DNA of 45,963 nt from the IMG/VR virus record IMGVR_UViG_3300047170_000110. One strand, written 5' to 3'. Below the pieces are notes generated by a model. The model had not been told where the DNA came from. It saw only the letters and a program-made list of their open reading frames with translations, and searched no databases. Of the stretch, positions 360 through 26,731 are shown piece after piece. The position numbers and the translations under genes are program-made. Source of the DNA: an uncultured virus (IMG/VR IMGVR_UViG_3300047170_000110) (Duplodnaviria; Heunggongvirae; Uroviricota; Caudoviricetes). Each line of letters starts with the position of its first letter. Position 1 is the stretch's first letter.

Positions 360-590
360 GTGACCAGTAAAGGGAAACTCATGTTGAATCAATACACGCA
401 CTTCGATATTTGCCAGAATGAAAACTGCGAGCGCAAGTGGTGTGTGGATCGCAGAAATGCGAAATGCATAAAAGAGGACGGTTGTGAGATTGAAGCAAAG
501 AGCAAAACCAATCGGTGCAAATGGTGCCACACTAAGTTTTTCTGCTCGGGTTACGGCGAGTGCCCTCTGCACGGGGACCATGGGCCATGA
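360..590 (+). CDS. small Cys-rich (Zn-finger-like) protein
   Basis: CQNENC, CKWC, CPLH motifs; stop overlaps next ATG (ATGA at 587-590). Confidence 0.55.
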   Translation: MTSKGKLMLNQYTHFDICQNENCERKWCVDRRNAKCIKEDGCEIEAKSKTNRCKWCHTKFFCSGYGECPLHGDHGP

Positions 591-1228
591 GTGATCTGAG
601 CCTAGCGGCAGAGCTTTTGACGGGGGAGGAGCAGGGGAACAACCTAAAGCTCTTTTACGCGAAATGGTACGACCAGTTCGATCCGTACACGCTACGCGTG
701 TTTTGCCACTACTACGCCCGCTACGGTATCCCGACGATCGAGTTGATCGATTGGCTGAAGGAACAGATCGCGGGCCGTAGTGCGATCGAGATCGGAGCGG
801 GATCCGGTGACTTAGGCTTCCACCTCAACATTCCGATGACGGACAACTACAATCAGGAAATGCCGGATGTAAAAAAATATTACGCGATCACCGGTCAACC
901 GACGATCCGGTACGGGAAGGACGTGGAGAAGCTCGACGCGCTGGAAGCTCAGGCGAAGTACAAACCCCAGGTCATCATCGGCTCCTGGGTCACTCAGTGG
1001 ATCGATCCCAATCTTCCCCCACCTCCGGGGGGAGGGAACATGTATGGGATCAAGGAGCCCGAGCTGTTGGAGCGGCTGCCTCCCGGCGGCAGTTATATCC
1101 ATATCGGCGCGCATGGGATTCACGATTTCAAGAAGATCTTGGCGCTCCCTCACGAGACGTATGAACTTCCGTTTCTCCGCAGCCGCCGACCGGACAACGT
1201 CGTTTACGTCTGGAACAAACCCCTTTGA
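587..1228 (+). CDS. class I SAM-dependent methyltransferase-like protein
   Basis: AIEIGAGSGDLG matches SAM-binding motif I; start MSDLSL coupled to upstream stop. Confidence 0.65.
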   Translation: MSDLSLAAELLTGEEQGNNLKLFYAKWYDQFDPYTLRVFCHYYARYGIPTIELIDWLKEQIAGRSAIEIGAGSGDLGFHLNIPMTDNYNQEMPDVKKYYAITGQPTIRYGKDVEKLDALEAQAKYKPQVIIGSWVTQWIDPNLPPPPGGGNMYGIKEPELLERLPPGGSYIHIGAHGIHDFKKILALPHETYELPFLRSRRPDNVVYVWNKPL

Positions 1229-1234
1229 TTCGAT

Positions 1235-1342
1235 GTGGTCGTTCGCCTAAAGGGTAAGGCACCTCCCGGCGGAGGAACGAGGGTGAAGTGGCGCTGAAGT
1301 AGCCCTCGTGGTGGAGAGTTCGAATCCCTCCCGATCACACCA
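1235..1342 (+). ncRNA. tRNA-like RNA with 4-nt loop in place of the anticodon loop and a long extra arm
   Basis: Acceptor GTGGTCG/CGATCAC + A-CCA; D arm GCCT-AAAGGGTA-AGGC; CCTCC-CGGC-GGAGG; ACGAGGG..CCCTCGT arm; T loop TTCGAAT. Confidence 0.75.
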
Positions 1343-1347
1343 AAAAC

Positions 1348-1371
1348 AAAGGGCCCCTTGCGGAGCCCTTT
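1348..1371. terminator. hairpin between convergent units
   Basis: AAAGGGC..GCCCTTT inverted repeat between tRNA-like RNA and tail tube 3' end. Confidence 0.5.
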
Positions 1372-1407
1372 GCCGAGGAGGTAAGTGGTGACAAAGCCGC
1401 TTACGCT

Positions 1408-1929
1408 TTACTGAACTCGAATGCGGGAGACGTAGGCCAGCTGACCGGTGATCTTGTGGATGTAGTTTCCATCCGCCGTCCACGCGTCGGGGTTCTTCGT
1501 CTTCAGCCAGCAACCCGAATATTGGTACACGCGGTACGGATCGGTGCCCTTGTACAGGAACTCTTGGATGACGAAAGGCCGCGTCTGGTCGGTCAGATCC
1601 TGGAACACGCTCGTGTAGCCGAGCGTGATTTCCAGCTCTTCATCCCACACTTCCGTGCGGGCGAAGCTGACCGTGAAGCCGGTGGCTTTGCCAGGGACGT
1701 AATCGACAGGCTTGCCGATGGTCACCTTGGACAATTCGTAAACGTGCTCGCCGTCCCGGTTGTAGGCGCCTTCCGGCTGCCAGGAGTTGATGCGGCCCAC
1801 GATATTCCCCGCCACGACCAGAGCGGCCCCGTGGTAGGTCATGGTCGTCGGGGCACCTGGATCGGTGAAATCCAGGGTGGCGCTTTGCACGCCGAAGGCA
1901 TTGGTGGCGAATGGACTTGGATTCGGCAT
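1408..1929 (-). CDS. tail tube protein
   Basis: 173 aa; 'VAGNIVGRINSW..YNRDGEHVYEL..VDYVPG..RTEVW..DQTRPFVIQE..YSGCW' resembles myophage tube proteins; AGGAGA RBS and late motif upstream. Confidence 0.8.
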   Translation of the reverse strand: MPNPSPFATNAFGVQSATLDFTDPGAPTTMTYHGAALVVAGNIVGRINSWQPEGAYNRDGEHVYELSKVTIGKPVDYVPGKATGFTVSFARTEVWDEELEITLGYTSVFQDLTDQTRPFVIQEFLYKGTDPYRVYQYSGCWLKTKNPDAWTADGNYIHKITGQLAYVSRIRVQ

Positions 1930-24499: not shown

Positions 24500-24533
24500 A
24501 AAACGGGGGAGGCACTGCTTCCCCCGTTTTTTT
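24500..24533. terminator. bidirectional terminator
   Basis: AAAACGGGGGAGGC..GCTTCCCCCGTTTTTTT between convergent genes. Confidence 0.85.
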
Positions 24534-25030
24534 TATTTTAAGTAGGACCAGCTTCGGCCGCGTTTGATGTCCGAGATGAGATAACGGTTCACTCCAAATC
24601 GTTTCGCAATCGCCACGGTTGTGTAACCTGCCGCCAAAAGTTCCCGGATGTCCCGCACCTGCTCTTCAGTCACGATCGCCTTCGGATGATTTTCCCCCTG
24701 TGGGGAGGTCCCATGCCGTCTGCGATCCAGCTGGTTCTCGCTGGCCGTCCCCCAGATCACGTTCTCCAATCGGCAGTCCTCATTCCGGCCGTTCAAATGC
24801 CGGACCTCGTATTCCGATGAAGGGCGTGGCCCTCGGAAGGTCGTGCAGACGAGGATATGGACCAGCTGGGTGGGATACTTCCCGTCCCGGGCCAGCCGGA
24901 CAACGAGGTAGCCGTTATCCGATCTGCCGGGCTTGAGCTTCTTCTCGCGGCCATTGGCGAACCCCACGCTCCAAATAGAGCCATCCTCGTCCGCCTCGTA
25001 GCCTGGAAACCCCGGGATTGCCTTGCGCAT
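24533..25030 (-). CDS. NUMOD4-HNH homing endonuclease with C-terminal HTH
   Basis: IPGFPGYEA...G.IWS; LVHILVC..F.GPRP; VRHLNG...DCRLENVIWGT.SEN. Confidence 0.9.
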   Translation of the reverse strand: MRKAIPGFPGYEADEDGSIWSVGFANGREKKLKPGRSDNGYLVVRLARDGKYPTQLVHILVCTTFRGPRPSSEYEVRHLNGRNEDCRLENVIWGTASENQLDRRRHGTSPQGENHPKAIVTEEQVRDIRELLAAGYTTVAIAKRFGVNRYLISDIKRGRSWSYLK

Positions 25031-26654: not shown

Positions 26655-26731
26655 GGACCCGTAGCTCAGTTGGGTAGAGCGGCCGATTCTAAATCGGCAG
26701 GTCGTGGGTTCGAACCCCACCGGGTCCTCCA
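26655..26731 (+). tRNA. amber suppressor tRNA, anticodon CUA
   Basis: Cloverleaf: GGACCCG/CGGGTCC-T-CCA; D stem GCTC/GAGC; GCCGA-TT[CTA]AA-TCGGC (anticodon 26689-26691); GTGGG-TTCGAAC-CCCAC. Confidence 0.95.

What the first reader, a model, noticed from the sequence alone, without database searches (positions are those of the whole stretch)
1235..1342. tRNA-like RNA without a usable anticodon loop
Seen: intact acceptor stem with A-CCA, D arm with GG and TTCGAAT T loop. The anticodon position is a 5-bp stem closed by only 4 nt (CGGC), followed by a roughly 33-nt extra arm. Acceptor plus T stems total 13 bp rather than 12. All stems are retained, which argues against random decay. Inference: a non-decoding tRNA mimic, e.g. 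a decoy for anticodon nucleases, RelA, EF-Tu or a synthetase, or an aminoacyl donor. It directly follows a methyltransferase-like gene.
Basis: partly seen in the sequence, partly recalled or inferred. Interest (0 to 1): 0.72.

Follow-up and report, generated by a model that had tools for sequence, protein, structure and literature searches.

The report
Anticodon-less tRNA look-alike in a phage
An uncultured soil or moss phage carries a 108-base gene shaped like a tRNA, with an intact upper half and CCA tail but no loop that could read a codon; it is either a working tRNA mimic of a poorly understood phage kind or a freshly disabled tRNA gene.

Summary
Window 1235-1342 (+) has a 7-bp acceptor stem, A-CCA, a canonical D arm and a UUCGAAU T loop. 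A 5-bp stem capped by CGGC sits where the anticodon arm should be, followed by a 33-nt extra arm. A T-arm-plus-acceptor descriptor finds only this site and the window's one true tRNA; 2 of 200 shuffled windows gave a hit with NCCA. ARAGORN and Rfam do not call it a tRNA, tRNA-Sec or tmRNA, and no credible intron rescues it. A second metagenome sample carries the identical sequence, so it is not an assembly error. The window is a fragment of an uncultured large phage. The element lies 6 nt after a gene with a methyltransferase fold and just before a terminator hairpin. I found no homologue in 160 loci of methyltransferase relatives, and the nearest accessible relative phage lacks both gene and element. 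There is therefore no covariation and no expression evidence. Best reading (about 0.5): a non-decoding, tRNA-derived RNA cut out by tRNA-processing enzymes, with the acceptor/T/elbow half as the working part. Main rival (about 0.35): a recent tRNA relic. It resembles the unexplained tRNA-like stable RNAs of T4 and T5.

The parts
1235..1342 (+). Whole tRNA-shaped element, 108 nt, ending in genomically encoded ACCA
   Evidence: Sequence. The MFE fold is a five-arm cloverleaf. It is one of only 2 descriptor hits in the window. The sequence is identical in run X3.
1235..1241 (+). Acceptor stem, 5' strand. Pairs 7 of 7 with 1332-1338. U at -1 (1234).
1242..1260 (+). 3-nt linker UUC (one more than the canonical two) plus the D arm: GCCU/AGGC stem with loop AAAGGGUA. 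With the one extra linker base, the canonical A14, R15, G18, G19, A21 and G10-C25 are all in place.
   Evidence: Read. The numbering argument is inference from standard tRNA numbering.
1262..1275 (+). Hairpin at the anticodon-arm position: CCUCC/GGAGG closed by the 4-nt loop CGGC
   Evidence: The motif is not over-represented in the window: 5 matches against 3.6 expected.
1277..1309 (+). 33-nt extra arm with a 7-8 bp stem and a 17-nt loop. The loop and 3' strand hold an 11-nt tandem direct repeat, 1284-1294 and 1295-1305, 9 of 11 identical, each copy starting UGAAGU.
   Evidence: The repeat was read from the sequence.
1309..1312 (+). UGGU linker before the T arm. It resembles the class I variable loop UGGUC of phage tRNA-Phe.
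   Evidence: comparison with the tRNA-Phe of Erwinia phage Kaldavass and Pectobacterium phage CBB
1313..1331 (+). T arm with a 6-position stem (5 standard pairs plus an A.C mismatch) and loop UUCGAAU
1332..1342 (+). Acceptor stem 3' strand, discriminator A, and CCA
560..1228 (+). Upstream gene of 222 aa with a SAM-methyltransferase-like Rossmann fold. Its stop codon lies 6 nt before the element. It is the presumed source of the element's transcript.
   Evidence: Motif IEIGAGSGDLG and 228 homologues. AF2 pLDDT 94 and Foldseek PDB hits to methyltransferases at E from 4.5e-5. PDB profile hit 7oas_A at E 0.006. No Pfam, PHROG or NCBIfam match.
1345..1374 (-). Terminator hairpin, 13 pairs followed by a T run on the minus strand, for the convergent gene 1408-1929. 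On the plus strand the same hairpin follows the element by 3-4 nt but has no U tract.
   Evidence: weak BjrC68-type and ctRNA terminator matches
1408..1929 (-). Convergent 173-aa virion structural protein gene
   Evidence: phrog_985, E 1.7e-5; 88% identical homologue in relative G006

Best explanation
A phage gene for a non-decoding, tRNA-derived RNA.

Inferred steps:
- It is transcribed as the tail of the methyltransferase-like gene's message.
- Host RNase P cuts before G1235, where U stands at -1.
- The 3' end is trimmed to the encoded CCA at 1342, giving a stable L-shaped RNA of about 108 nt.

Shown: the parts that tRNA-handling enzymes use without reading an anticodon are all kept. These are the acceptor stem, the A73-CCA end, the T arm and the D-loop/T-loop elbow. 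The decoding end is sealed by a 4-nt loop, and a 33-nt arm is added.

Inferred: the working part is the upper half. The RNA acts as a tRNA mimic for a protein that recognises the tRNA body and CCA end rather than the anticodon, such as a processing enzyme, an anticodon-blind synthetase, or a defence effector that attacks the acceptor end. The extra stacked position in the acceptor/T helix and the A.C mismatch would disfavour EF-Tu and ribosomal use (inference from what is known of tRNA-Sec, recalled).
For: - Specific tRNA signature beyond chance. It is one of 2 descriptor hits in the window, the other being the real tRNA. Hits with NCCA occurred 2 times in 200 shuffled windows.
- My covariance model of the element picks out true tRNAs as its next-best matches: the window's tRNA(CUA) at 20 bits and a relative's tRNA-Asn at 29.4 bits. 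The frame is therefore tRNA-like.
- All universal core positions outside the anticodon loop are present: U8, A14, R15, G18, G19, A21, G10-C25, U48, G53, T54, Psi55, C56, A58, C61 (read). Of about 29-30 modelled pairs, one is a mismatch.
- The departures from a canonical tRNA are length changes in the linker, the loops and the stem stack: a shorter anticodon loop, an 11-nt tandem repeat, one extra linker base and one extra stacked pair, G1313-C1331. That last change needs matched bases on both strands. The only lesion inside a stem is the single A.C mismatch.
- Tidy placement: 6 nt after a stop codon and 3-4 nt before a hairpin. It has the same kind of context as the window's real tRNA, with U at -1 and encoded CCA followed by an A-rich trailer.
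- The sequence is identical in a second sample.
- Precedent: T4 rnaC and rnaD and T5 RNA1 are annotated stable, tRNA-like RNAs of unknown function. Earlier notes of this scan report several anticodon-less phage tRNA look-alikes. Those notes are leads only.
Against: - No homologue was found anywhere, so there is no covariation and no evidence of purifying selection. Searched without result: 160 loci (153 unique) of methyltransferase relatives by blastn-short and by covariance model; 5 whole viral records; and four viral contigs pattern scans (and 13 for the protein).
- The nearest accessible relative, G006 (major head protein 88% identical), lacks both the methyltransferase gene and the element. 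The element is therefore dispensable for this phage group.
- Fold energy is not better than shuffles (z = -1.1).
- There is no own promoter match. The single sigma-70-like site in 1-2200 is at 825-853, with 0.9 expected by chance.
- The 11-nt tandem repeat and the shortened loop are also what replication slippage in a dying gene would leave.
Confidence: 0.5

Rival explanations
1. A recently disabled tRNA gene, a relic. An ordinary phage tRNA travelled with the methyltransferase gene. It lost 3 nt of its anticodon loop and gained an 11-nt slippage duplication. It has not yet had time to decay further or be deleted, and it has no function.
For: - Relatives of the methyltransferase gene often sit beside tRNA clusters: 27 of 153 unique loci have a tRNA within 1.5 kb, and 43 of those 60 tRNAs are Ser or Leu.
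- The element is a singleton and is absent from the nearest relative.
- The tandem 11-nt repeat (9 of 11 identical) is a typical slippage product.
- There is an A.C mismatch in the T stem.
- Fold z is only -1.1.
- Relatives also hold tRNA-like stretches that ARAGORN misses. One example is L098/L100 1469-1541(-), at the place where sister loci have a tRNA-Leu.
Against: - At least four separate length changes coexist with no substitution at any universal core position.
- The extra pair G1313-C1331 needs two matched changes.
- Phage genomes purge dead DNA quickly (general knowledge).
- The first copy of the repeat has diverged in just the two bases that would otherwise compete for pairing with the arm's 5' strand. 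That looks like tidying, not decay (inference).
Confidence: 0.35
2. A cis-acting processing signal. The tRNA shape is kept only so that RNase P, and possibly RNase Z, cuts the methyltransferase message a few bases after its stop codon. This sets the mRNA's 3' end and lifetime. The released RNA has no job of its own. This is a special case of the best explanation, so the two confidences overlap and are not additive.
For: - The position is exactly at the end of the ORF, 6 nt after the stop, and ahead of a hairpin that lacks a U tract on this strand.
- The retained features (acceptor, RCCA, elbow) are those RNase P needs (recalled; see PMC4919913, of which I saw only the search listing and the start of its abstract).
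- Earlier scan notes propose the same role for other anticodon-less phage folds (unchecked).
- The plant mitochondrial t-element paper (PMC1920247) appeared in the listing; I saw only the listing and the start of its abstract.
Against: - RNase P needs only an acceptor/T minihelix. It does not explain keeping a 5-bp anticodon-position stem and a 33-nt arm.
- No second cistron follows that would need separating.
- The methyltransferase relatives in 153 unique loci show no such element downstream.
Confidence: 0.2
3. An odd but working decoder. The large loop of the extra arm carries UGAAG twice, resembling U33-GAA-R37 of tRNA-Phe. The arm sits just before a class I-like UGGU variable loop. The extra arm could therefore be the true anticodon arm and the CGGC hairpin an insertion.
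For: - The 3' part of the element gives BLAST hits to annotated phage tRNA-Phe genes: 84-85% over 38-39 nt, E 0.1-0.4.
- The element has UGGU(G) where those tRNA-Phe genes have the variable loop UGGUC.
Against: - The loop is 17-21 nt, not 7.
- The best 7-nt reading, CUGAAGU, is closed by only 3 of 5 pairs and competes with the 7-8 bp stem (read).
- ARAGORN and Rfam find no such tRNA.
- The BLAST E-values are not significant.
Confidence: 0.03

Closest known systems
Phage T4 species 1 and 2 RNAs (rnaC, rnaD) and phage T5 RNA1, annotated as small stable or tRNA-like RNAs of unknown function (NC_000866 and NC_005859)
   Same: Phage-encoded RNA of about 105-145 nt. T4 rnaC and T5 RNA1 carry a recognisable T arm but no usable anticodon loop, and they have extra structured inserts (sequences and folds). 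Function unknown.
   Different: - No sequence or model similarity. My model R1 hits only the ordinary tRNAs of those loci, not rnaC, rnaD or RNA1.
- Those RNAs lie inside tRNA gene clusters. This element stands alone behind a protein gene.
- Their stability was shown experimentally according to the record annotation. Nothing is known of this one's expression.
Canonical bacterial or phage tRNA (Rfam RF00005), class II type with a long variable arm
   Same: 7-bp acceptor stem, discriminator plus CCA, D arm with G18 G19, T loop UUCGAAU, a 5-bp stem at the anticodon position, and a long arm at the variable position.
   Different: - 4-nt loop instead of a 7-nt anticodon loop.
- 33-nt arm with a 17-nt loop.
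- 3-nt rather than 2-nt linker after the acceptor stem.
- 6-position T stem.
- A class I-type 4-bp D stem.
- No Rfam hit even at E <= 10.
tRNA-Sec and allo-tRNAs, non-canonical cloverleaves (features recalled; Rfam tRNA-Sec model tested)
   Same: More than 12 stacked positions in the acceptor/T helix, and a long extra arm.
   Different: The split is 7/6, not 8/5 or 9/4. There is no UCA or any other anticodon, no 6-bp D stem, and no Rfam tRNA-Sec match.
tRNA-like processing elements: plant mitochondrial t-elements (PMC1920247; listing and start of abstract seen) and mascRNA (recalled)
   Same: A tRNA-shaped fold at the end of an mRNA that could direct RNase P or RNase Z cleavage without decoding.
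   Different: Those are eukaryotic or organellar. No cleavage has been shown here. This element also keeps an encoded CCA and two further arms that a processing signal does not need.

Membership tests
Canonical tRNA (RF00005 / ARAGORN) | 7-bp acceptor stem, discriminator base, CCA end | tested here: met
   7 of 7 pairs, then A-CCA
Canonical tRNA (RF00005 / ARAGORN) | D loop with G18 G19 and T loop T-Psi-C-R-A forming the elbow | tested here: met
   AAAGGGUA and UUCGAAU read. Pairing in three dimensions is not testable here.
Canonical tRNA (RF00005 / ARAGORN) | 7-nt anticodon loop with U33 and a purine at 37 | tested here: not met
   The loop is CGGC. The relaxed ARAGORN call with an intron gives only a stem with two mismatches.
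Canonical tRNA (RF00005 / ARAGORN) | Reaches the detector's threshold (Rfam gathering score 29 bits; ARAGORN default) | tested here: not met
   No tRNA-clan hit at E <= 10 in 1150-1450. ARAGORN finds only the tRNA at 26655.
tRNA-Sec (RF01852) | 8/5 or 9/4 acceptor/T helix, UCA anticodon, long D stem, Rfam score | tested here: not met
   7/6 with a mismatch, no anticodon, 4-bp D stem. No Rfam hit.
tmRNA | tRNA-like domain plus tag reading frame | tested here: not met
   ARAGORN tmRNA mode at an 80% threshold finds none. No Rfam hit.
Y RNA / YrlA with Ro (TROVE) partner | tRNA-like domain joined to a Ro-binding stem, with a Ro gene nearby | tested here: not met
   No Rfam hit. No TROVE domain in the 34 window ORFs scanned with Pfam. 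The rest of the phage genome was not seen.
IMES-2 RNA motif (RF02035) | Rfam gathering score 54.7 bits | tested here: not met
   14.1 bits, E 0.21, with many non-standard pairs. Only the loop AAGU.GCGCU.AA looks alike.
Phage tRNA-like stable RNAs (T4 rnaC/rnaD, T5 RNA1) | Sequence or structure homology to a described member | tested here: not met
   R1 search of the T4 and T5 loci hits only their ordinary tRNAs.
Phage tRNA-like stable RNAs (T4 rnaC/rnaD, T5 RNA1) | Lies within a phage tRNA gene cluster and is co-processed with tRNAs | tested here: inconclusive
   No other tRNA lies within 25 kb in the window. However, the window starts 560 nt upstream of the methyltransferase gene, and relatives have their tRNA clusters on that side.
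Phage tRNA-like stable RNAs (T4 rnaC/rnaD, T5 RNA1) | Accumulates as a stable small RNA in infected cells | not testable with these tools
   No RNA run holds the stretch.

The most novel reading that the evidence does not exclude
The element and the methyltransferase-like gene form a two-part module. The methyltransferase family, which has no named relatives, sits next to Ser/Leu tRNA clusters in 27 of 153 unique loci and acts on long-armed tRNAs. The element is a dedicated non-ribosomal tRNA. Its 13-position acceptor/T stack keeps it off EF-Tu. Its sealed anticodon stem makes it immune to anticodon nucleases. Its A73-CCA end lets an anticodon-blind synthetase charge it, or lets it soak up a defence enzyme that attacks tRNA acceptor ends. 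That would be a new RNA-based counter-defence or aminoacyl-carrier system in large soil phages.
Probability: 0.08. Interest if true: 0.8.

Novelty: new variant of a known kind. Interest (0 to 1): 0.4.

Why it matters
Phages have been known since the 1970s to make stable tRNA-like RNAs whose function is still unknown. T4 species 1 and 2 and T5 RNA1 are the examples I fetched. Recent work shows that phage tRNAs can defeat tRNA-targeting defences: PMC10264068, PMC11464382 and PMC11555353, of which I saw only the listings and abstract starts.

This element is a compact, cleanly bounded example. It keeps only the anticodon-independent half of a tRNA and rides with an unnamed methyltransferase family. 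It would make a convenient test object for what such look-alikes do.

If it is merely a relic, it still shows how tRNA finders miss tRNA-derived sequence in phage genomes. The evidence so far is one sequence without relatives, so the value is that of a lead, not a discovery.

Tried and rejected
- **Whole genome.** None is held for this window.
- **Homologue hunts that found nothing:**
  - blastn against GenBank phages gave only T-arm hits to tRNA-Phe at E 0.1-0.4.
  - Exact and IUPAC patterns in viral contigs gave no match.
  - The single-protein locus search found nothing.
  - blastn-short and model R1 over 80 viral and 80 metagenome loci of methyltransferase relatives hit only ordinary tRNAs at 23 bits or less.
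  - Among 5 whole viral records there was one hit, 75 nt long at 27 bits.
  - The metagenome records could not be searched whole.
- **Synteny.** None of six neighbouring window proteins occurs in the 160 loci.
- **Parent tRNA in 185,579 species genomes.** The strict pattern gave 0 hits. The relaxed pattern gave 5 hits, of which 1 lies in an ARAGORN-called tRNA (a tRNA-Gly of an Acidimicrobiia MAG). By reading, the other 4 show no flanking T stem and look like chance matches. No parent was identified.
- **Cultured phages.** The methyltransferase has no tblastn match.
- **Repeated-element idea for the CGGC hairpin.** Rejected: 5 matches against 3.6 expected. The 11-nt identity with 1079-1089 is one of 17 such short repeat families in 3 kb.
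- **Origin from the tRNA-Ser(GCU) of relatives.** A 10-nt identity at the same tRNA positions has E 0.41 and is not significant.
- **Expression.** No RNA holder is listed for the stretch.
- **Stop-codon recoding.** Not supported. TAG ends 5 of 30 long ORFs.
- **Earlier scan notes by place and by sequence.** Nothing found.
- **Other tRNA-like elements in the window.** Model R1 with filters off finds nothing else above 11.2 bits.

Full report
**What the window is.** The long ORFs match phage families: tape measure, endonuclease VII, HNH endonuclease, virion proteins and a major head protein. By tblastn, the head protein is 31-36% identical to those of PaBG, BcepSauron and other large phages. No whole genome is held. 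Runs that contain the stretch are moss metagenomes. The window therefore comes from an uncultured, G+C-rich, probably large phage.

**The observation.** The sequence at 1235-1342 reads in this order:
- a 7-bp acceptor stem (6 Watson-Crick pairs, 1 G-U);
- a UUC linker;
- a D arm, GCCU/AGGC with loop AAAGGGUA;
- a single A;
- a stem CCUCC/GGAGG closed by CGGC;
- AA;
- a 7-8 bp stem with a 17-nt loop (33 nt with its closing pair);
- UGGU;
- a T arm with six stacked positions, one of them A.C, and loop UUCGAAU;
- the acceptor 3' strand, then A and CCA.

RNAfold returns this five-arm cloverleaf as the minimum-energy fold. Its energy is unremarkable: z = -1.1, and 24 of 200 shuffles do as well.

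The tRNA signature is what stands out. A descriptor of T arm plus a fully paired acceptor stem finds two sites in the window, this one and the real tRNA(CUA) at 26655. In 200 shuffled windows it gave 94 hits, and only 2 were followed by NCCA.

If one base is counted as an insertion after position 9, every universal tRNA core position outside the anticodon loop is in place: U8, A14, R15, G18, G19, A21, G10-C25, U48, G53, T54, Psi55, C56, A58 and C61. That follows from reading the sequence against standard tRNA numbering.

**Not a canonical tRNA.**
- ARAGORN calls only the tRNA at 26655.
- Rfam at gathering thresholds finds only that tRNA.
- On 1150-1450 at E <= 10, no tRNA, tRNA-Sec or tmRNA model matches. 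The only hit covering the element is IMES-2 at 14.1 bits against a threshold of 54.7.
- With introns allowed ARAGORN still finds nothing. At an 80% threshold it offers a 'tRNA-Ala(GGC) with a 21-nt intron' whose anticodon stem has two mismatches, which I reject.

**Not an assembly error.** Contigs of run X3 come from another sample and study code, though from the same habitat and year. They cover 816-1325 and 1310-1960 with no difference inside the element. The only difference is T>G at 1224, in the last codon of the upstream gene. No single X3 contig spans the whole element.

**Context.** The element starts 6 nt after the TGA of ORF 560-1228 and ends 3-4 nt before a hairpin. That hairpin is a good terminator for the convergent virion-protein gene on the minus strand.

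The upstream protein has no Pfam, PHROG or NCBIfam match. It does have at least 228 metagenomic homologues and a motif I-like IEIGAGSGDLG. Its confident model (pLDDT 94) gives best PDB matches that are all SAM-dependent methyltransferases, with E from 4.5e-5 and TM about 0.4. There is also a weak profile hit to 7oas_A at E 0.006. 'Methyltransferase-like' is therefore fair, but the substrate is unknown.

**Search for relatives of the element.** I fetched 80 viral and 80 metagenome loci around relatives of the upstream gene, at most 59% identical.
- blastn-short found no homologue of the element in them.
- A covariance model built from the element and its fold (R1) found only ordinary tRNAs, at 23 bits or less.
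- None of six neighbouring window genes is present in those loci. The gene therefore sits in changing surroundings.
- The head protein led to one closer phage, G006, a 223-kb viral record with the head protein and the 173-aa virion protein both 88% identical. G006 has no match to the methyltransferase gene and none to R1. Beside its copy of the virion gene there is only a terminator hairpin.
- Four pattern or protein scans of the viral collection and two of the species genomes gave no homologue and no parent tRNA. The five relaxed hits were one tRNA-Gly and four that show no flanking T stem and look like chance matches.

The element is therefore a singleton.

**What the anatomy suggests.** The departures from a canonical tRNA are mostly length changes:
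- a 4-nt instead of a 7-nt loop;
- an 11-nt tandem repeat inside the extra arm (1284-1294 and 1295-1305, 9 of 11 identical, each starting UGAAGU);
- one extra linker base;
- one extra stacked pair, G1313-C1331, between the T and acceptor stems.

The only substitution-type lesion in a stem is the A.C mismatch.

Which hairpin is 'the' anticodon arm is ambiguous. By linker lengths the CGGC hairpin occupies the anticodon position. But the UGGU before the T arm looks like the class I variable loop UGGUC of phage tRNA-Phe, which would make the long arm the former anticodon arm and the CGGC hairpin an insertion. Under either assignment there is no usable anticodon loop. A weak 10-nt identity to the tRNA-Ser(GCU) of a relative at the same positions is not significant (E 0.41).

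**Mechanism.** Shown: the shape, the encoded CCA, the position in the transcription unit and the lack of a decoding loop.

Inferred: co-transcription with the upstream gene, 5' cleavage by RNase P (U at -1, as at the window's real tRNA), trimming to CCA, and action through the acceptor/T/elbow half.

I put about 0.5 on a functional non-decoding RNA. Within that, a trans-acting mimic for a protein that does not read the anticodon is somewhat more likely than a pure cis processing signal. RNase P would not need the two lower arms, and no cistron follows the element.

Decoy roles that need an anticodon loop or codon pairing (anticodon nucleases, RelA) are unlikely on first principles. I put about 0.35 on a recent relic and a few percent on an odd decoder or on chance.

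**Comparison with what is known.** T4 rnaC and rnaD and T5 RNA1 are annotated stable or tRNA-like RNAs of unknown function. By my reading of their sequences and folds, rnaC and RNA1 carry a recognisable T arm and no anticodon loop. R1 does not match them, and they lie inside tRNA clusters, so this is a resemblance of kind, not family membership.

Earlier notes of this scan describe several anticodon-less or oversized phage tRNA look-alikes. I used them only as leads. A 2023 survey reports many tRNA-like candidate structures in viral contigs (PMC10690425; passages read).

**Verdict.** It is a new variant of a known but unexplained kind. Interest is moderate, because the evidence is one sequence with no relatives and no expression data.

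Noticed in passing
window 26655-26731 (+): A canonical tRNA with anticodon CUA, an amber-suppressor type that ARAGORN labels 'Pyl'. Rfam scores it 71.6 bits and its CCA is encoded. TAG still ends 5 of 30 long ORFs, so I see no sign of recoding. Relatives also carry CUA (L055) and UCA (L019, L118) tRNAs.
   Followed up: partly
window 560-1228 (+); loci L001-L160: The upstream methyltransferase-fold protein belongs to a large unnamed family: 228 hits at E <= 0.001, with no Pfam, PHROG or NCBIfam match and no match in cultured phages. In 27 of 153 unique loci a tRNA lies within 1.5 kb. Of those 60 tRNAs, 56 are upstream of the gene, and 43 are tRNA-Ser or tRNA-Leu. The family may act on tRNA.
   Followed up: partly
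L082 1629-1704 (-), and the same gene in L084, L085, L088, L090, L091, L107, L108, L110: A 76-nt 'tRNA-Leu(UAG)' without the long variable arm that bacterial tRNA-Leu normally has. Its true identity may differ from the ARAGORN label.
   Followed up: no
L098 and L100, 1469-1541 (-): A 73-nt stretch with a good T arm, a 7-bp acceptor stem and ACCA but no recognisable D or anticodon arm. ARAGORN misses it. It lies beside tRNA-Ser, where sister loci have the tRNA-Leu(UAG). It may be another degenerate or non-decoding tRNA in this phage group.
   Followed up: partly
window 1079-1089 and 1262-1272; 1020-1035 and 1260-1275: Short direct repeats link the CGGC hairpin to two Pro-Gly-rich coding stretches of the upstream gene (11 of 11 and 14 of 16 identical). 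Repeats of this size are common in this G+C-rich DNA, with 17 such families in 3 kb, so this is probably chance.
   Followed up: yes
window 1271-1299 (+): The GGAGG of the hairpin lies 7 nt before a GTG that opens a 4-codon frame (GTG AAG TGG CGC TGA). This is probably coincidence.
   Followed up: no
window versus G006 (L171-L174): The nearest relative phage is a mosaic. Of the 32 window ORFs compared, 12 have a match in the 80 kb of G006 that I fetched, at 34-88% identity, and in a different order and orientation.
   Followed up: partly
window 24533-25030 (-): An HNH/NUMOD4 homing-type endonuclease gene lies directly after the major head protein gene, on the opposite strand.
   Followed up: no
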